Made by a program: the position numbers and the translations under genes. A DNA stretch of 64,000 bases from Actinomycetota bacterium. Lineage in GTDB: Bacteria > Actinomycetota > Thermoleophilia > Gaiellales > Gaiellaceae. The stretch lies in the NCBI GenBank assembly GCA_003132665.1, contig PKYN01000018.1:41022-105021 (forward strand), in the 5' to 3' direction. Below the pieces are notes generated by a model, which saw only the letters and a list, made by a program, of their open reading frames with translations, was not told the origin of the DNA and made no database searches. Below are positions 5,950 through 18,214 of the stretch, piece after piece. Within the stretch, counting starts at the first letter, position 1. The number at the start of each line of letters is the position of its first letter.

Positions 5950-5986
5950 CAGTGTGTTAGATACCCTAGAACCCGCATCACTGCTT

Positions 5987-6059
5987 GGCGAGGTAGCTCA
6001 GTTGGTAGAGCACACGGCTGAAAACCGTGGTGTCGCCGGTTCAATTCCGGCCCTCGCCA
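5987..6059 (+). tRNA. tRNA-Phe (GAA)
   Basis: 73-nt cloverleaf. Acceptor ggcgagg/cctcgcc, D-arm gctc-agttggta-gagc, anticodon arm cacgg-ctGAAaa-ccgtg, T-arm gccgg-ttcaatt-ccggc, discriminator a. Confidence 0.95.
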
Positions 6060-6060
6060 T

Positions 6061-6194
6061 CTCGCTTTCTCGGGCGGGTCTTCGCCCGAGGGCGAAGACC
6101 CTAGCGCCGCTGGCCGCACGTCACTCTACGGAGCCGTGTAGGCGACACTGTCTCCTCCGGTGCCGCACGGCCAGCGACACTCCGAGAAAGCGAG
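6061..6194. other. 134-nt nested inverted-repeat element directly 3' of tRNA-Phe (structured RNA, MITE-like or att-associated)
   Basis: Perfect 13-bp closing stem (6061-6073 ctcgctttctcgg / 6182-6194 ccgagaaagcgag). Perfect 12-bp hairpin (6076-6087 / 6090-6101). Perfect 9-bp stem (6108-6116 / 6168-6176). Inner 5-bp and 4-bp stems. Confidence 0.5.
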
Positions 6195-6335
6195 AGGCGC
6201 AGGGGTTGGAGATGAGCCCCGTGGCCGGTTTGATGGGCGAGGTGCTGAAGTAGCGGTTGTCCGAGAGCGCGTGATGGCCGCGCCCGCGCTTGTCGGTCGC
6301 GGCGGCGTAGGCAGTCGCGAGATATATGAGTGACG

Positions 6336-6773
6336 CTAGCTTGAGCCGTGGTTCCGAACAGCCTCAACGAAGTTCGGTGCCGATATCTTGAGCGCGTCGA
6401 GGAGTTGCTCCAGGGTGAATGGCGGCGACCTCAGATCATTGGCCTGCTCTTCGACAACTTGTCTCGCGCCCAGCGGGTTCATGTTGAAGAGGATCAGCAG
6501 AAACTCATCCGGCTCAATCGCTTCGACACCGAAGTCGGAGCAGTCGTCGGATGGGAAGTGACGCGTGTTGAAGGTGACAACGACCTCGGCTCCAATCGCC
6601 ACGGCGGCAGCTAAAACGTGGCGATCCTTCTCGTCGTTGCACATGGCCGGCTCGAGCTTGCGGATCTTTCGCTCAGGCACAAGCGAACCATCGAAGGCGA
6701 GGTTCATTTGATCGCGCAAATATGCTGCCTGCTTCGGCGTCGCTCCCGCGTCGTAGACGAGATGGCGAACCAT
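6336..6773 (-). CDS. PIN-domain toxin (VapC-like); the conserved N-terminus continues upstream to 6938 without a canonical start
   Basis: DRHVLAAAVAIGAEVVVTFNTRHFP is typical of this PIN family. The same frame stays open upstream to a TAA at 6939-6941. It encodes IAFRAVIDSCALYPFTLRDTLLRLAELELYEPYWSERILDE, the expected first-Asp region. Confidence 0.7.
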   Translation of the reverse strand: MVRHLVYDAGATPKQAAYLRDQMNLAFDGSLVPERKIRKLEPAMCNDEKDRHVLAAAVAIGAEVVVTFNTRHFPSDDCSDFGVEAIEPDEFLLILFNMNPLGARQVVEEQANDLRSPPFTLEQLLDALKISAPNFVEAVRNHGSS

Positions 6774-6942
6774 CTCATCCAGAATGCGCTCGCTCCAGTA
6801 GGGCTCATAAAGCTCGAGCTCTGCGAGACGAAGCAGCGTGTCGCGCAGCGTGAACGGATAGAGAGCGCAGGAATCGATGACGGCACGGAAAGCGATGGGC
6901 TGAGCATAGGCCGGAACCGCGCGTCGTGCGTATTCTCTTTAC

Positions 6943-7425
6943 CTAACGGTAACCGCCCTCGATCTTCTGAGAGGAGCGCGCGAGTTCTCGCAAGTGCTCT
7001 TTCCTAGTGAGAGCTCGGCGCTCGCGATAGGCAATGAGATCCTCGATCCGGATTCGTCTGTGGCTACCAACGCGCTCGAACGGAAGCTCGCCGGCGTCAC
7101 AGAGCTTGACAACGTGCGGGCGCGAGACGTGCAGCAGATCGGCGGCCTGCTGCGTGGTGAGGTGAAGACCGTAGGGCATCAGAGCGATTGTCTGCCCCTT
7201 CGCCATCGCCTCGGCAACGTTCTTGAGTATCTTGAACACAGACGCGGGTAGCTCGACCGGCTTCTCGTCGGGGTTCGGACCGATTAGGAGAGCCCTACCC
7301 CTCTCATGGTAGATCTCCTCGATCCGCTCGCTTAGGCGCTCCAGGCCTGGAGCCTCTTCACGGGTCGGTTGAACGACGTTGTCAGAGAAAGCAGAGGAAG
7401 AAGGAGTCGCTGGCACGGGAACCAC
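6943..7425 (-). CDS. Excisionase/MerR-like HTH DNA-binding protein (putative antitoxin of the PIN gene)
   Basis: LTTQQAADLLHVSRPHVVKLCDAGELPFERVGSHRRIRIEDLIAY is an excisionase-family HTH. It lies immediately upstream of the PIN frame. Confidence 0.7.
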   Translation of the reverse strand: MVPVPATPSSSAFSDNVVQPTREEAPGLERLSERIEEIYHERGRALLIGPNPDEKPVELPASVFKILKNVAEAMAKGQTIALMPYGLHLTTQQAADLLHVSRPHVVKLCDAGELPFERVGSHRRIRIEDLIAYRERRALTRKEHLRELARSSQKIEGGYR

Positions 7426-7542: not shown

Positions 7543-10697
<3,155 letters not shown>

Positions 10698-10701
<4 letters not shown>

Positions 10702-11350
10702 TCCGCCTCAGGCTCCTCTTTGGGTGCAGCTAACTCTCCGCATAAGCGCTCGCCCATTTCCACATAGGCGTCGTGATCAACCGAATACAGCACTTCGCTC
10801 GCGTAGTAGCTGCTCTCTCCGATATCTAGCATCTCGCACTCGCGATCGATCGCGCGGTCGTACTCGCTATCGGGGTCAGGCAAAGTTGGCGGCGAGTTTT
10901 CGAAAACTGCCTGCGCTAGCCTCTCTCCGGCGTTAGAAACCTCGAAAAGGACCGAGAACACCCACAGAGCGGCTTCTCTGACCAACGCCAAGACGTTTTT
11001 CTCGGGAATACCCTTTTGACCTCCGTGGTATTGCTCGTTTCTATGACCGTGAGCCCAAACGATATGGCTCTTTTCAACCTCCCACGTCAGGCCTCTATTA
11101 ACAAGCTCCGCTTCGAGGAAGTCGAGTTTGGAGTGGTAGTTCGCGAGCCATCGCTCTACATCACTCTTTTGGTACTCGCGGTTTCCGCGTTGGATCGGGT
11201 TCAGCGTTAGATAAGTTGTAATCGCAATTTCAATAGCGTCATCGAAGCTAATAAGCGCGATGCGCCGATCGAAATCTTCGCCGTCGATGAGATGACACTC
11301 GGCGTGAACGAGGAGCTCGAACGGACCATTCGCCCAGGGAGGAAGAGAGT

Positions 11351-11354
<4 letters not shown>
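10698..11354 (-). CDS. Hypothetical protein embedded in the hsd operon; HEPN-like Rx4H motif
   Basis: 218-aa ORF with a GTG start overlapping the hsdS stop (GTGA) and a stop overlapping the hsdR start (ATGA). HGHRNEQYH (R105-H110, nt 11025-11042) fits the HEPN Rx4-6H signature. The C-terminal tail is acidic. Composition is visibly more A/T-rich than the neighbours. Confidence 0.75.
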
Positions 11355-14177
<2,823 letters not shown>

Positions 14178-14319: not shown

Positions 14320-14952
14320 ATGCCCTACGACGTAGGTAAGCGCCCGGCGGCATGGCTCTCGCGGCAAGTCGCTAGACGGAAATCTCGGATGTTATTGCTT
14401 GCTGCTGCGGGAGCGGCGATGGTCGCGCTGCTAGCGGCTTTGATTCTTCTTCACCAGCAAACCTTCGCTCTCATCGTCTCCATAGCAGTAATCCCGGTTT
14501 CCGTAGCCGTCTGGCACCTACCCGACAAGCTGGGTGATGATCTCGATAACTGGTCACTCGGCGAGAGAGCCGAGCTCTCGATCGGCGAACTCTTGAACGA
14601 GCTTCGCAACGAGGGCTTCATCGTCATGCACGATATCGAGCAAGAATACGAAGGCAACATCGACCACCTCGTCAGTGGCCCGACTGGTGTCTTCATGATC
14701 GAATCCAAGGCGAGAAGGTATCCGGACGAAGCGCCGAAGAAAGCGAAACGGCAGGCCAAGAAGCTCCGTAACGAACTCGTCGCGGAATGGGTTGAACCGT
14801 TGATCTGCATCAGCAACCGCGATGGGAAGCCTTTCATGCACGGAGGGGTTTGGATCGTCCCAAAGCAGCACCTCCTCGAATGGATCCGAGCCCAGCACAG
14901 AGAAACCGTTCCGTTCGAGCGCCTGGCCCGCTTCGCGGACAGCCTGCCTTAG
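14320..14952 (+). CDS. NERD (nuclease-related domain) protein with N-terminal transmembrane segments
   Basis: GERAELSIGELLNELRNEGFIVMHDI...NIDHLVSGPTGVFMIESKA matches the NERD pattern. Hydrophobic N-terminal helices are present. Confidence 0.8.
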   Translation: MPYDVGKRPAAWLSRQVARRKSRMLLLAAAGAAMVALLAALILLHQQTFALIVSIAVIPVSVAVWHLPDKLGDDLDNWSLGERAELSIGELLNELRNEGFIVMHDIEQEYEGNIDHLVSGPTGVFMIESKARRYPDEAPKKAKRQAKKLRNELVAEWVEPLICISNRDGKPFMHGGVWIVPKQHLLEWIRAQHRETVPFERLARFADSLP

Positions 14953-15717: not shown

Positions 15718-16497
15718 CCCGCCCCTCTCCCCACCCGCCGCTGGACCGCCCTCCTAGCCCTCGAGCCCCCGAGCCTCAAAGGCTTCGACGACCCCCTCGT
15801 CGAGTGGCGCCGCCTGTTCGCAGAACTCTTCGGAACCTTCCTACTCGTGCTCGTCGCCTGTGGCGGCCCCGTCGTCAACGCGCTCAGTCCCGGAAGCATC
15901 AGCCGCCCGGCCGCGGTCGCGGCGCCCGGGCTGATGGTGATGGCGATCATCCTCTTCATGGGCGCCGTCTCGGGCGCGCATCTCAACCCTGCCGTCACGC
16001 TCGCCTTCACGCTGCGCCGCGACTTCCTCTGGCGCCGCGTGCCCGGTTACGTGCTCGCCCAGCTGGCCGGAGCGACGCTGGCCTGCCTCTTTCTCTGGGC
16101 CGTCTACGGCAAGGTCGGCGCGCTCGGCGCGACCGTGCCCGGCGCCGGCATGACCGACTGGCAGGCGATGCTGACCGAGCTCGTGCTCACCCTCGGGCTG
16201 GCCAGCACGATTCTCGGCACGGCCTCGCGCGCCCAGAACGTCGGCCCGCTCTCGGCGCTCGCCGTCGGCGGCTACATCATCCTGGCCGGGCTCTGGGCGA
16301 GCCCGCTCTCGGGCGCCTCGATGAACCCGGCCCGCTCCTTCGGCCCCGACCTCGCGCTCGCAAACTTCAGCCACTTCTGGGTCTACGTCGTCGGGCCGCT
16401 GGCGGGCGCCGTGATCGCGGCCGGCTTCGCCTGGATCCTGCGCGGCCCGGGCGGCGACATCGGCGGCGTCACGGCCGCCCAGGGCAAGCTCGACTAG
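15688..16497 (+). CDS. MIP-family channel (aquaporin/glycerol facilitator)
   Basis: Two NPA boxes (HLNPAVT and SMNPARS) and six hydrophobic segments. The ATG at 15688 is preferred over the longer ORF-track start. Confidence 0.9.
   Translation: MPNHPATPDHPAPLPTRRWTALLALEPPSLKGFDDPLVEWRRLFAELFGTFLLVLVACGGPVVNALSPGSISRPAAVAAPGLMVMAIILFMGAVSGAHLNPAVTLAFTLRRDFLWRRVPGYVLAQLAGATLACLFLWAVYGKVGALGATVPGAGMTDWQAMLTELVLTLGLASTILGTASRAQNVGPLSALAVGGYIILAGLWASPLSGASMNPARSFGPDLALANFSHFWVYVVGPLAGAVIAAGFAWILRGPGGDIGGVTAAQGKLD
16421..16496. repeat. 76-bp direct repeat, copy 1 (authentic 3' end of the MIP gene)
   Basis: ccggcttcgcctggatcctgcgcggcccgggcggcgacatcggcggcgtcacggccgcccagggcaagctcgacta matches 18236-18311 at 73 of 76 positions. 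Confidence 0.85.
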
Positions 16498-16541
16498 CGG
16501 CGCGTTCCGCCCTGAGGTCACAGCTTGTGATCCGACCTCTT

Positions 16542-17312
16542 TCAGGCCCGGCGCCGCTGGTGGCACGAGGCCGGGCGGCTCGAGGGCTCGGGCAGCAGTT
16601 GCACTATGCGATCGGGCTGGAGCCCGTAGTTCTTCAGCCCGCGCTTCCTCAGGCAGCGGTAGATCGATCGGTTGGGGATCAAATGCCGCTTCCCGCCCGA
16701 GTCCATCAGCCAGCGCACGACCGACCCGTCCCAGTCCTTCGACGAGAAGATGACGTCTCTGAAGTCGGGCGGCCACTCCGGTCCCTGGTCGGCGAGATGG
16801 ACGAAGTGACTCGGCCAGTGCGCGCTTCCCCAGGCGATCGTCTGCCTGGTCGTTCGGTCGTAGCCGTAATTGTCGTCGGTAATCGTGATGCCCGAGGAGC
16901 TGACCGACTCCACGTAGGCGACGTGCGTGCTCCACTCCGCGATCGCGCCGACCGCCGGGCGATGGTTGACGCGCCGGCGCGAGACGTGCCTGTACCAGCT
17001 TCCGGCGTTGTCGTACCAGCCCGGGAACTCGAGGCCGTTCTTCCGCAGCCGGTAGGCCGCATACAGGGTGCAGTTGTGCGGCCCGGTCGAGTTGTAGCTG
17101 GCCTGTGTGCCACCGTATCTGGCCCAGGGCCAGCCCGAGCGCCGCGCCGTCTCGTAGCGGTAGCCGCCGCGCGCGCACTCGTAGCCGGTGGAGATGCACT
17201 TCAGCCTGTTGCCCTCGCGCGGGTAGCGACCCGGCATGCTCCCGCTCGCTCCGGTCGAAGTCGGGAAGGCGGCGATGACGACTGCGGCGGCGCAGACCGC
17301 GGTCATAGACAC
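16542..17312 (-). CDS. Secreted CHAP-domain peptidoglycan amidase/peptidase
   Basis: N-terminal signal-like MSMTAVCAAAVVIAAFP. The CHAP Cys (GPHNCTLYAAYRL) and His (STHVAYVESV) regions are present. Confidence 0.8.
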   Translation of the reverse strand: MSMTAVCAAAVVIAAFPTSTGASGSMPGRYPREGNRLKCISTGYECARGGYRYETARRSGWPWARYGGTQASYNSTGPHNCTLYAAYRLRKNGLEFPGWYDNAGSWYRHVSRRRVNHRPAVGAIAEWSTHVAYVESVSSSGITITDDNYGYDRTTRQTIAWGSAHWPSHFVHLADQGPEWPPDFRDVIFSSKDWDGSVVRWLMDSGGKRHLIPNRSIYRCLRKRGLKNYGLQPDRIVQLLPEPSSRPASCHQRRRA

Positions 17313-17539
17313 GAACGTGAGTGGCTTTCGCCGCTCTATTGCCTTCAGCGGTACGACCTGCCTCCGTGTCGGGATCAGGGCCAGGGGGATGCGGCGCGGA
17401 GGTTAGCCGGAGGCTCGGACGTGATTGGGGACGCTCTTTGGGCTGCTCTCCCAGCTGCACCTTTACTCCCGAGCGCCGAAAGCGGTCGCGCGCTAATTGC
17501 CTCTGGACATATCGAGCCCGGCACGGGAGAATTGCCGTC

Positions 17540-18214
17540 ATGCGCGGGATCTCCAACTTCAACGTCACCCTCTACGACCTCTTCGGCTATTTGATGCCGG
17601 GGCTCGTGGCGCTTGGCTCGCTCTCGCTCCTGGCTTGGTCTCTCTTCATCCCGACCCATCCGCTGCACTCGCCGGCGCTCACCAGCGTGGAGTGGCTGAT
17701 CGTGTTCGTGCTCGCCTACTTCCTCGGTCATCTCGTTCAGGCGATCGGCGACCTCGCCTTCTGGTGGGCGCACGAGGAGAAGGTTGCGGACAAGGTCGGC
17801 AAGGATGCCCTCGGCCCGGCGCGAATGAAAGAGCTGCAGAAGGCGGCGAAGCTCGATGACGAGCAAAAGAACTCCCTCTTCGGCTACTGCGACACCTACC
17901 TCGCTCAGCAGGGAAAGACGGCCGACCGCGAGATCTACCAGTACCGCGAGGGCTTCTACCGCGGGCTGACGATCGCCGTCGTTCCCGCCCTGGCGGCGAT
18001 CGTCGCGGAGCTGATCAGGGGCAGTGCCTCGCTGCGCGGCGGCCACAGCGTCCACCAGCTCGGCACGGGCCCGCTCGTCTTCGCGCTCCTGATCGTCCTG
18101 GCCACGATCGGGCTTTCCTTCTGGCGCTACCGGCGCTTCGTCGAGTACCGCGTGCGCGACGCGCTGTTCGGCTTCGCGATCGACAGCGAGAAGCCGCCGA
18201 CCTCAAAAGGCTGA
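17540..18214 (+). CDS. Hypothetical membrane protein
   Basis: ATG at 17540 (MRGISNFNVTLYDLFGYLMPGLVALGSLSLLAW). Several hydrophobic helices. No family recognised. The upstream part of the ORF-track model is Arg-rich and implausible. Confidence 0.55.
   Translation: MRGISNFNVTLYDLFGYLMPGLVALGSLSLLAWSLFIPTHPLHSPALTSVEWLIVFVLAYFLGHLVQAIGDLAFWWAHEEKVADKVGKDALGPARMKELQKAAKLDDEQKNSLFGYCDTYLAQQGKTADREIYQYREGFYRGLTIAVVPALAAIVAELIRGSASLRGGHSVHQLGTGPLVFALLIVLATIGLSFWRYRRFVEYRVRDALFGFAIDSEKPPTSKG

What the first reader, a model, noticed from the sequence alone, without database searches (positions are those of the whole stretch)
10698..11354. HEPN-like gene wired into a type I R-M operon (hsdM-hsdS-X-hsdR)
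Directly seen: X is a 218-aa ORF between hsdS and hsdR, joined to both by 4-nt start/stop overlaps (GTGA at 11351-11354, ATGA at 10698-10701), so it is almost certainly co-translated with the restriction complex. It is visibly more A/T-rich than hsdM and hsdR. It contains HGH-RNEQYH (R105-H110, nt 11025-11042), which fits the HEPN ribonuclease signature Rx4-6H with the usual polar residue after the Arg. The motif sits at the start of what looks like the last helix of a helical N-terminal domain of about 150 aa, followed by an acidic tail of about 70 aa. Established knowledge: the anticodon nuclease PrrC is embedded in a type Ic hsd locus and held latent by the R-M complex, RloC is similar, and HEPN domains are recurrent partners of R-M systems. 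Inference: X may be an R-M-guarded RNase or abortive-infection effector that fires when phage anti-restriction proteins hit the Hsd complex. I do not recognise its sequence as PrrC or RloC: it has no NTPase domain and is much smaller. It could therefore be an undescribed minimal version of that logic.
Basis: partly seen in the sequence, partly recalled or inferred. Interest (0 to 1): 0.78.

Follow-up and report, generated by a model that had tools for sequence, protein, structure and literature searches.

The report
HEPN-like accessory gene in type I restriction operon
A small, widespread but unnamed gene sits just upstream of the cutting subunit of a type I restriction system; it most likely encodes an RNA-cutting "backup" defence enzyme, a design already predicted for many related families, so it is a solid new member of a known kind.

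Summary
The core observation holds. X (10698-11354, minus strand, 218 aa) lies between hsdS and hsdR with 4-nt overlaps on both sides and has lower GC (0.54 against 0.65).

X belongs to a large family annotated only as hypothetical (690 clusters, 769 representatives). It has no Pfam, NCBIfam, PADLOC or PDB sequence match.

- **N-terminal domain (1-152):** the model is confident (pLDDT 96) and all-helical. Every Foldseek hit with probability above 0.6 is a HEPN protein, but TM is only 0.5-0.6 and no E-value is significant. H102, R105, N106, Y109 and H110 are invariant or nearly so.
- **C-terminal part:** this is not a loose tail. Residues 160-207 form a conserved, acidic, folded mini-domain. 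In my sample it occurs only in copies directly upstream of hsdR.
- **Fusions in relatives:** the N-domain is fused to a canonical RNxxxH HEPN domain, to HsdR-like SWI2/SNF2 motors, or to an N-terminal domain shared with AbiJ.
- **X is optional cargo:** operons whose HsdR is 84-88% identical carry AbiJ plus PDC-S01, or DUF4357 plus HipA, in the same slot.

Best reading (0.55): a HEPN RNase effector coupled to HsdR, analogous to PrrC. RNase activity, docking and trigger are all inferred. HEPN genes embedded in R-M operons were described in 2013, so this is a new member of a known kind.

The parts
12615..14177 (-). hsdM, type I methyltransferase subunit (520 aa)
   Evidence: Pfam N6_Mtase 1.6e-108 and HsdM_N 2e-27. 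JGI gene call on the source contig.
11351..12631 (-). hsdS, specificity subunit (426 aa from TTG; JGI aa)
   Evidence: Pfam Methylase_S 7.8e-15. The stop TGA at 11351-11353 overlaps the X start.
10698..11354 (-). X, the whole ORF (218 aa plus stop): HEPN-like N-domain, small acidic C-domain and a variable tail
   Evidence: 690 homolog clusters, all 'hypothetical' with no Pfam domain. No Pfam, NCBIfam, PADLOC or PDB sequence hits.
10899..11354 (-). X N-terminal domain, residues 1-152: all-helical and HEPN-like
   Evidence: AF2 pLDDT 95.9, pTM 0.91. All Foldseek hits with probability above 0.6 are HEPN proteins: 4nqf, 2hsb, 1ufb, 5yjc Csm6, 8xeh, 1wol (8yuf sits at 0.60). The domain occurs as a mobile module in other architectures.
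11025..11042 (-). R105-N106-E-Q-Y109-H110, the candidate catalytic Rx4H motif (H102 lies just upstream at 11049-11051)
   Evidence: Counts among 150 representatives: R105 139/139, N106 136/139, Y109 138/138, H110 138/138, H102 140/140. R105, Y109, H110 and H102 are also invariant in A2 (124 sequences).
10734..10877 (-). X C-terminal mini-domain, residues 160-207 (helix, beta-hairpin, two helices; 15 D/E against 3 K/R); proposed Hsd-docking module
   Evidence: Conserved block I169, D170, S186, D193, Y197, G201, L204. pLDDT is about 90. In the loci sampled it is present only in copies directly upstream of hsdR. Charge counts.
10701..10733 (-). Variable acidic tail, residues 208-218
   Evidence: Not conserved in A1. 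pLDDT below 50 for residues 210-218.
7543..10701 (-). hsdR, restriction/translocase subunit (1052 aa); its ATG at 10699-10701 overlaps the X stop
   Evidence: Pfam HSDR_N, SWI2_SNF2, T1R_D3-like, T1RH-like_C. Only distantly related to EcoR124I HsdR (3.5e-30, motor region only).

Best explanation
X is an accessory fourth gene of a type I R-M cassette.

Its N-terminal 152 residues form a divergent HEPN-superfamily domain. I predict this domain is a metal-independent endoribonuclease that uses R105, N106 and H110, helped by H102 and Y109.

Its small acidic C-terminal domain (160-207) is proposed to tether the protein to the restriction subunit HsdR or to the assembled Hsd complex.

By analogy with PrrC/EcoprrI, the RNase would be held inactive while the restriction complex is intact. 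It would be released as a second-line, growth-arresting response when restriction is blocked or overwhelmed.

Shown here:
- gene structure;
- family-wide invariance of the motif;
- the helical fold, whose nearest structural neighbours are HEPN proteins;
- strict placement immediately 5' of hsdR across many phyla;
- modular fusions of the N-domain to HEPN domains and to HsdR-type motors;
- the optional, swappable nature of X.

Inferred only: RNase activity, the substrate, physical binding to HsdR, and the trigger.
For: (1) Motif. H102, R105, Y109, H110 and P117 are invariant, and N106 is 98% conserved, among cluster representatives at 50% identity or less. An upstream acidic/basic stripe is also conserved: D27-x3-R31, D38, N39 and E42. 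This matches the HEPN definition in PMC3710099: Rx4-6H, a polar N/D/H after the R, and an upstream conserved acidic residue.

(2) Fold. The N-domain model has pLDDT 95.9. Every PDB hit with probability above 0.6 is a HEPN-superfamily protein:
- 4nqf, probability 0.92;
- 2hsb, 0.87, TM 0.54, rmsd 5 A;
- 5yjc Csm6, 0.85, TMq 0.63;
- 1ufb, 0.82;
- 8xeh and 1wol, 0.66 each (8yuf, another HEPN toxin, sits at 0.60).
The full-length model gave the same trend.

(3) Architecture.
- In relatives the N-domain is followed by a canonical HEPN domain (RNxhhHG). That second domain gives weak Pfam hits to HEPN_Apea, HEPN_Swt1 and HEPN_RiboL-PSP.
- hhalign places RNxxYH on RNxxxH.
- P0127 carries X behind an N-terminal domain that is 42% identical (E = 3e-14) to that of an AbiJ (HEPN) protein.

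(4) Link to HsdR.
- 22 of 31 genome loci, from Acidobacteriota, Planctomycetota, Chloroflexota, Deltaproteobacteria, Bacteroidales, Actinomycetes and a Methanotrichaceae archaeon among others, have an hsdR match downstream of X.
- In 19 of them X lies immediately 5' of hsdR, mostly with an ATGA or GTGA overlap. This holds even where 1.6-3.6 kb of other defence genes separate hsdS from X (L003, L005, L018, L029).
- Three metagenome cassettes, one of them the window's own contig, have the same layout.
- The N-domain is fused to HsdR-type SWI2/SNF2 motors in 31 of 124 representatives and to HSDR_N-containing HsdR in 2.
- The C-domain is present in all copies adjacent to hsdR and absent from all copies elsewhere in this sample.

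(5) Precedent. prrC sits inside an hsdMSR (type Ic) neighbourhood and is held latent by EcoprrI. HEPN fusions to R-M helicases and nucleases, but not to methylases, are documented (PMC3710099).
Against: - No sequence or profile similarity to any Pfam HEPN family, even with family consensus sequences. There are no PDB profile hits for the N-domain.
- All Foldseek E-values are above 0.2, and TM is only about 0.5-0.6.
- The hhalign match to the neighbouring HEPN domain covers only 23 columns (probability 4%).
- The domain has many more invariant polar residues (H17, H21, D27, D29, D38, E42, R56) than a minimal HEPN, so its chemistry could differ.
- X is dispensable for this R-M lineage. HsdR proteins 84-88% identical to the window's have other cargo in the same slot. 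There, a different gene also overlaps the hsdR start, so tight coupling to hsdR is not specific to X.
- The one fusion directly to HSDR_N that lacks the C-domain (P0144) comes from a sequence with an obviously frameshifted C-terminus.
- The C-domain-less 'long class' relatives are solitary genes with no hsdMS nearby, so the N-domain itself does not need an R-M partner.
Confidence: 0.55

Rival explanations
1. X is an autonomous abortive-infection or toxin-type HEPN gene. It merely rides in the hsdS-hsdR cargo slot ('selfish embedding', co-transfer with the R-M system) and has its own sensing mechanism. It makes no physical or regulatory connection to the Hsd proteins.
For: - The slot is demonstrably swappable. 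Sister operons hold AbiJ plus PDC-S01, or DUF4357 plus HipA. Other X-bearing operons also contain RhuM, a KwaB-like gene, AAA plus Peptidase_S8, Schlafen/AlbA_2, YhcG and an ABC ATPase.
- X has a foreign GC content. Its closest homolog is 75% identical, against 90% for HsdR.
- N-domain relatives work in non-R-M contexts.
- Embedding as a general, partly selfish phenomenon is described in bioRxiv 10.1101/2024.01.29.577857.
Against: - In 19 of the 22 genome loci with hsdR downstream, X is the gene next to hsdR and other cargo is inserted on its hsdS side. The exceptions are L007 (RhuM), L019 (an 866-aa gene) and L023 (66-nt gap).
- The C-domain correlates perfectly with hsdR adjacency in this sample.
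- The N-domain is repeatedly fused to HsdR-type motors.
- No antitoxin-like partner gene accompanies X in the four-gene cassettes.
Confidence: 0.27
2. X is a non-toxic accessory or regulatory subunit of the restriction enzyme. A HEPN-fold nucleic-acid-binding or ligand-binding domain would modulate HsdR assembly, translocation, cleavage or restriction alleviation, rather than cleave RNA.
For: - Translational coupling to hsdR and the conserved order.
- Some HEPN domains are non-catalytic binders (MtlR, KNTase_C; PMC3710099).
- MtlR/YggD structures appear among the weaker Foldseek hits.
- The acidic C-domain could occupy a DNA-binding surface.
Against: - Complete conservation of R, N and H in the motif is the signature of catalytically active HEPN domains. 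Inactive ones lose it.
- Within this family, the second HEPN domain does lose its R/H in motor fusions while the N-domain never does.
- Close HsdR relatives function without X.
Confidence: 0.1
3. The N-domain is not an RNase but a different enzyme, for example a metal-dependent nuclease acting on DNA. It would use the extra invariant His/Asp/Glu residues. In the motor fusions that lack HSDR_N, it would serve as the nuclease head.
For: - Extra invariant H17, H21, D27, D29, D38, E42 and H102 lie on the same helix faces.
- In the 610-650-aa class the domain sits at the N-terminus of a SWI2/SNF2 plus T1R_D3 motor that has no PD-(D/E)xK domain.
- There is no profile link to known HEPN families.
Against: - The structural neighbours are HEPN proteins, not HD, DinB or other metal-binding helical bundles.
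- The RNxxYH motif is textbook HEPN.
- X coexists with an intact HSDR_N nuclease in the window operon.
Confidence: 0.08

Closest known systems
PrrC anticodon nuclease embedded in the EcoprrI (type Ic) hsd locus
   Same: X is an accessory gene inside an hsdMSR operon, as prrC is (PMC3710099). By my recollection prrC also lies between hsdS and hsdR; this was not checked here. Its predicted effector is a HEPN-type domain with an essential R...H motif. It is an optional add-on to an otherwise complete type I system.
   Different: X has no ABC/Rad50-like NTPase domain and is 218 aa, against about 400 aa for PrrC (size from my own knowledge). It shows no sequence similarity and no PADLOC or Pfam hit. 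It carries a dedicated 48-aa acidic C-domain instead. The host HsdR belongs to the T1RH-like_C (HindI-like) class and is only distantly related to type IC EcoR124I. Latency and the trigger are untested.
Solo HEPN proteins embedded in R-M operons (AbiJ solos, AbiU2, Abi2/AbiD/F, ApeA, EC042_2821, DUF4145) as catalogued by Anantharaman et al. 2013
   Same: The concept and genomic logic are the same. AbiJ occupies the identical hsdS-hsdR slot in an operon whose HsdR is 86% identical to the window's. P0127 shares the N-terminal domain of that AbiJ protein.
   Different: X matches none of the Pfam, PADLOC or NCBIfam models for these families. Its motif context is distinctive (H-x2-R-N-x2-Y-H-x-G-x4-P) and it has many extra invariant residues. 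It also has the hsdR-linked C-domain.
HEPN domains fused to SWI2/SNF2 or EcoEI-like R-M helicases (for example the 'WQE_15321' architecture listed in PMC3710099)
   Same: The N-domain of X is fused to HsdR-like SWI2/SNF2 motors in 31 of 124 family representatives.
   Different: In the window the two are separate, translationally coupled genes.
HEPN toxins of HEPN-MNT toxin-antitoxin modules (SO_3166 type; PDB 8xdj, 8xeh, 8yuf, 7ae6)
   Same: These are among the nearest structural neighbours, and they share the Rx4H motif.
   Different: No MNT antitoxin gene lies next to X. TM is only about 0.45, and X is larger (152 aa against about 130 aa) with extra helices.

Membership tests
HEPN superfamily | Conserved Rx4-6H motif with a polar (N/D/H) residue right after the R | tested here: met
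   R105 139/139, N106 136/139 and H110 138/138 among representatives. R105 and H110 are invariant in A1, A2 and A3. Definition from PMC3710099.
HEPN superfamily | Second conserved acidic residue upstream, typically within E-x3-[KR] | tested here: met
   D27-x3-R31 (94% each), invariant D38 and E42. Structural equivalence to the canonical position was not verified.
HEPN superfamily | Four-helix up-down bundle fold superimposable on solved HEPN structures | tested here: inconclusive
   The model has pLDDT 95.9. All hits with probability above 0.6 are HEPN proteins (4nqf 0.92, 2hsb 0.87, Csm6 5yjc 0.85 with TMq 0.63, 1ufb 0.82). But TM is 0.47-0.63, rmsd is 5-9 A and no E-value is below 0.2. Residue-level superposition of the motif was not available.
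HEPN superfamily | Sequence or profile similarity to an established HEPN family | tested here: not met
   No Pfam HEPN hit for X, for 124 members' N-domains or for consensus sequences. No PDB profile hit. hhalign to the adjacent canonical HEPN domain aligns only the motif (23 columns, probability 4%).
HEPN superfamily | Metal-independent endoRNase activity | not testable with these tools
   Requires biochemistry.
PrrC/RloC anticodon nucleases | N-terminal ABC (Rad50/SbcC-like) NTPase domain | tested here: not met
   X is 218 aa with no P-loop domain and no Pfam, PADLOC or NCBIfam hit.
PrrC/RloC anticodon nucleases | Embedded in a type I hsd locus (PrrC) | tested here: met
   Window, 22 of 31 genome loci and three metagenome cassettes, one of them the window's own contig.
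PrrC/RloC anticodon nucleases | Held latent by the Hsd complex and activated by an anti-restriction factor (Stp) or dTTP | not testable with these tools
   Needs genetics and biochemistry.
AbiJ / Abi_C HEPN | Match to Pfam Abi_C or the PADLOC AbiJ model | tested here: not met
   No hit for X. The positive control L048:3511-4326 hits Abi_C at 1.6e-18 and AbiJ at 1.4e-19.
DUF4145 (R-M-associated HEPN) | Match to Pfam PF13643 | tested here: not met
   No hit at E up to 1 for X, or up to 10 for family consensus sequences.
Type I restriction-modification system (the host operon) | hsdM (N6_Mtase), hsdS (Methylase_S) and hsdR (HSDR_N nuclease plus SF2 motor) in one operon | tested here: met
   JGI gene calls.

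The most novel reading that the evidence does not exclude
X may be a true stoichiometric partner of HsdR. Its acidic, DNA-mimic-like C-domain would sit on a DNA-binding surface of the restriction complex. Displacement by phage DNA mimics (Ocr/ArdA), or by the engaged or stalled state of the motor, would then free two HEPN domains to dimerise and cleave RNA. That would give a minimal, NTPase-free way of converting the state of a DNA translocase into an RNase signal. A related possibility is that the N-domain is a nuclease head of new chemistry. It would replace the PD-(D/E)xK domain in the solitary HEPN-like/SWI2-SNF2 proteins of Xanthomonas and Pseudomonas.
Probability: 0.12. Interest if true: 0.75.

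Novelty: new member of a known kind. Interest (0 to 1): 0.45.

Why it matters
The family is large: at least 690 clusters at 90% identity. It spans many bacterial phyla and at least one archaeon. It is annotated only as 'hypothetical protein' and is absent from the copies of Pfam, NCBIfam and PADLOC v2 searched here.

Defining it would close an annotation gap in type I R-M loci. It would also add a compact, testable example to the PrrC paradigm of R-M systems backed up by an RNase.

The clean split between a mobile catalytic N-domain and a C-domain found only next to hsdR offers a simple handle for asking how an embedded effector is wired to its host system.

The sister operons carry AbiJ or HipA in the same slot. 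They provide a natural swap experiment.

It does not change the conceptual picture, which has been in the literature since 2013.

Tried and rejected
- **Pfam, NCBIfam and PADLOC scans of X:** nothing apart from a chance YccJ hit at E = 0.09.
- **PDB sequence searches:** phmmer and a family profile gave no hit to the N-domain. The only hits were coiled-coil noise against linker columns.
- **Consensus sequences of five subfamilies against Pfam at E up to 10:** no HEPN hit. I first thought the HEPN_Apea, HEPN_Swt1 and HEPN_RiboL-PSP hits seen for family members fell on the N-domain. They map to a second, downstream domain instead.
- **hhalign of the N-domain against that second domain:** only the motif aligns.
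- **Foldseek against BFVD:** nothing significant.
- **Plasmid search (tblastn):** only distant relatives annotated as hypothetical, in Leptospira and Methanomethylovorans.
- **Viral contig scan:** one real hit in 2.9 million contigs, so X is not a phage gene.
- **Supplement of PMC3710099:** it does not hold the WQE_15321 sequence, so identity with that published architecture could not be checked.
- **'X is an obligatory fourth subunit of a distinct type I subtype':** rejected, because the closest HsdR relatives lack X.
- **'Zincin-like HExxH' reading of H17-A-E-x-H21:** rejected, because the spacing is H-x-E-x-H and no metalloprotease-like structural neighbours appear.
- **P0144 (N-domain fused directly to HSDR_N):** treated as weak evidence only, because its C-terminus is visibly frameshifted.
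Full report
**1. The observation**

On the minus strand the window carries four genes in order: hsdM (12615-14177), hsdS (11351-12631), X (10698-11354) and hsdR (7543-10701).
- Pfam confirms the three Hsd subunits. hsdR has HSDR_N, SWI2_SNF2, T1R_D3-like and T1RH-like_C.
- The X start (GTG) overlaps the hsdS stop as GTGA at 11351-11354. The X stop overlaps the hsdR start as ATGA at 10698-10701.
- X has GC 0.54 and GC3 0.61, against 0.65/0.88 for hsdR and 0.64/0.87 for hsdM.
- The peptide HGHRNEQYH is present, with R105-H110 at nt 11025-11042.
- X is a real gene. Differences from homologous DNA are concentrated at third codon positions. Homologs keep the same length and the same N-terminus.

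An Rx4-6H string is not remarkable in itself. It occurs in 74% of shuffles of X, and a second, non-conserved one sits at R68-H74. The motif becomes meaningful only through conservation.

**2. The family**

X has no match in Pfam, NCBIfam, PADLOC or among PDB sequences. Yet it has 690 homologous clusters in the 5.8-billion-protein collection. The top 120 are 215-237 aa long (nearly all 215-224) and 60-75% identical to X (plus one identical sequence), and all are 'hypothetical'. An exhaustive profile search found 769 cluster representatives.

Among the 150 best representatives, the following are invariant or nearly so: W7, H17, H21, D27, D29, R31, D38, N39, E42, R56, H102, R105 (139/139), N106 (136/139), Y109, H110 (138/138) and P117. 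The family signature is H-x2-R-N-x2-Y-H-x-G-x4-P.

**3. Two domains, not a domain plus a tail**

- The full-length AlphaFold model (pLDDT 86) shows a helical N-domain. It also shows a C-terminal unit at residues 160-207 made of a helix, a beta-hairpin and two helices, modelled at pLDDT about 90.
- That unit carries its own conserved residues: I169, D170, S186, D193, Y197, G201 and L204.
- It is very acidic, with 15 D/E against 3 K/R.
- Only the last 11 residues are variable.
- Modelled alone with a more diverse alignment, the N-domain (1-152) reaches pLDDT 95.9 and pTM 0.91. Its helices are 6-24, 27-50, 73-87, 95-110, 119-137 and 142-151.
- The motif lies at the end of helix 95-110, not at the start of the last helix.

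**4. Is the N-domain HEPN?**

For:
- The motif fits the published definition in PMC3710099: Rx4-6H, N after R, and an upstream conserved acidic residue.
- In the Foldseek search of the PDB, every hit with probability above 0.6 is a HEPN-superfamily protein: 4nqf, 2hsb, 1ufb, Csm6 5yjc, the HEPN-MNT toxin 8xeh and 1wol (8yuf sits at 0.60). TM-scores are 0.47-0.63. The full-length model gave the same trend.

Against:
- No Foldseek E-value is below 0.2.
- No Pfam HEPN model is hit, even by family consensus sequences.
- A family profile finds no HEPN chain in the PDB.

I therefore rate HEPN-superfamily membership as probable (about 0.75) but not demonstrated.

**5. Architectures of relatives support the assignment**

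- The N-domain is a mobile module.
- In shorter relatives it is followed by a second domain of about 100 aa with a textbook RNxhhHG motif. That second domain gives weak hits to HEPN_Apea, HEPN_Swt1 and HEPN_RiboL-PSP. The result is a tandem arrangement reminiscent of other HEPN dyads.
- hhalign places the N-domain's RNxxYH on that RNxxxH, but over only 23 columns.
- In a 610-650-aa class, which supplies most of the 31 of 124 representatives with SWI2_SNF2 (8 also have T1R_D3-like), the second domain has usually lost its R/H. The N-domain never has.
- Two representatives are fused to HSDR_N-containing HsdR. One of these, P0144, is visibly frameshifted at its end.
- P0127 carries a complete X behind an N-terminal domain of about 80 aa. 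That domain is 42% identical (E = 3e-14) to the N-terminus of an AbiJ protein. The same head domain is therefore attached either to a recognised HEPN effector or to X.

**6. Genomic context**

- A scan of one genome per GTDB species gave 31 loci. They come from Deltaproteobacteria, Acidobacteriota, Planctomycetota, Chloroflexota, Bacteroidales, Actinomycetes, Polyangium, WOR-3, Fermentibacteraceae, Desulfobulbus and a Methanotrichaceae archaeon, among others.
- In 22 of them tblastn finds hsdR downstream of X, usually with hsdM and hsdS upstream.
- The X-hsdR junction is an ATGA or GTGA overlap, or a gap within a few bases of that, in 19 of these genome loci and in the five further hsd-embedded loci fetched later (one viral contig, four metagenome places). 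This holds even where 1.6-3.6 kb of other defence genes lie between hsdS and X: a KwaB-like gene in L003, an ABC ATPase in L005, and AAA plus Peptidase_S8 in L018 and L029.
- Exceptions are RhuM in L007, an 866-aa gene in L019 and a 66-nt gap in L023.
- Independent metagenome contigs reproduce the four-gene cassette with 4-nt overlaps on both sides.
- In this sample every copy with the C-domain is next to hsdR, and every copy without it is not. That is the basis for proposing the C-domain as the Hsd-coupling module.

**7. X is optional cargo**

- The closest HsdR homologs are 83-90% identical to the window's. The closest X homolog is only 75% identical.
- Three operons with HsdR 84-88% identical lack X. 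One of them (L048) has the same downstream HTH_17 and PIN genes as the window.
- Their hsdS-hsdR slot holds AbiJ (Abi_C, motif RNKMSDGH) plus the PADLOC candidate PDC-S01 (AAA_14/DUF4143), or DUF4357 plus HipA/HTH.
- In L048 and L050 the PDC-S01 gene overlaps the hsdR start by 16 nt. Tight packing with hsdR is therefore a property of the slot and not proof of a special X-HsdR relationship.
- Together with the low GC of X, this points to recent cassette exchange.

**8. Other contexts of the N-domain**

- The motor-fused long class occurs as solitary genes in variable regions of Xanthomonas and Pseudomonas aeruginosa, without hsdMS.
- A class of about 220 aa pairs with a conserved 866-aa protein of unknown function, in WOR-3 and in Polynucleobacter.
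- In Chloroflexota it is fused to, or adjacent to, TPR repeats.
- Leptospira and Methanomethylovorans plasmids carry relatives annotated as hypothetical, near Shedu, HNH and type III R-M genes.
- The family is almost absent from viral contigs.

**9. Mechanism**

Best-supported reading (confidence 0.55): X is a HEPN RNase effector tethered through its acidic C-domain to HsdR or to the Hsd complex, acting as a PrrC-like second line of defence.

Shown: gene structure, conservation, fold trend, hsdR adjacency, fusions and optionality. Inferred: RNase activity, substrate, binding and trigger.

Rivals:
- an autonomous Abi-type HEPN gene that is only a passenger in a cargo slot (0.27);
- a non-catalytic regulator of HsdR (0.10);
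- a nuclease of different chemistry, using the extra invariant His/Asp/Glu residues (0.08).

**10. Comparison with what is known, and novelty**

- PrrC is embedded in an hsdMSR locus and uses a HEPN nuclease, but it needs an ABC ATPase domain that X lacks.
- Anantharaman et al. 2013 reported at least 16 HEPN clades embedded in R-M operons. They also reported repeated HEPN fusions to SWI2/SNF2 and EcoEI-like helicases, and they proposed PrrC-like latency for them.
- Payne et al. 2024 showed that type I R-M systems commonly carry embedded defence genes.

X is therefore a new, unannotated member of a known kind and not a new principle. Its distinguishing points are the divergent N-domain, with an unusually rich set of invariant residues, and the small C-domain linked to hsdR. 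Interest: 0.45.

Noticed in passing
window 5986-7425 and 14320-14952: The hsd cassette sits in a small island next to tRNA-Phe (5986-6061, +). It is flanked by a VapC/PIN toxin gene (6336-6773, -), an HTH_17 excisionase-like gene (6943-7425, -) and a NERD nuclease gene (14320-14952, +). The same HTH_17 and PIN genes follow hsdR in a sister contig (L048).
   Followed up: partly
L048 3511-6016; L050 3815-6016; L049 2973-5641: Operons with HsdR 84-88% identical to the window's carry AbiJ (Abi_C, RNKMSDGH) plus PDC-S01 (AAA_14/DUF4143), or DUF4357 plus HipA/HTH, in the hsdS-hsdR slot instead of X. The slot is a swappable cargo site.
   Followed up: yes
P0127 residues 1-80; L048 3511-4326: An unannotated N-terminal domain of about 80 aa (42% identity, E = 3e-14) is shared between an AbiJ protein and a 338-aa protein that otherwise is a complete X. 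It has no Pfam match.
   Followed up: partly
L019 7983-11214; L030 7920-11211: An X-like protein without the C-domain (213-234 aa) is followed, with overlapping stop and start, by a conserved protein of about 866 aa with no Pfam or PADLOC hit. The two copies are 37% identical. The WOR-3 copy lies inside an hsd operon and the Polynucleobacter copy has no hsd genes. This may be an undescribed two-gene module.
   Followed up: partly
L028 1533-3359; L038-L041 (P0271-P0274): In Xanthomonas spp. and Pseudomonas aeruginosa, solitary 608-611-aa genes encode the X N-domain, a degenerate second HEPN domain and an HsdR-like SWI2/SNF2 motor, with no PD-(D/E)xK nuclease domain. No hsdM or hsdS lies nearby and the neighbourhoods vary.
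   Followed up: partly
L017 8001-8614: In one Acidobacteriota genome the X homolog is split into two frames (residues 1-115 and 114-205). This is either a frameshifted pseudogene or an assembly error.
   Followed up: no
L001, L003, L005, L007, L008, L018, L029 (between the hsd genes): X-bearing hsd operons also hold other embedded defence-type genes: YhcG/DUF1016, a KwaB-like gene, a 923-aa ABC ATPase (AAA_21/SMC_N), RhuM, Schlafen AlbA_2 plus HATPase_c_4, and AAA plus Peptidase_S8.
   Followed up: partly
window 15804-17594 (+) and 15841-17568 (-): Two almost fully overlapping long ORFs (596 and 575 aa) lie on opposite strands in a stretch of GC 0.69. Neither has a Pfam hit, and which one is real was not resolved.
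   Followed up: no
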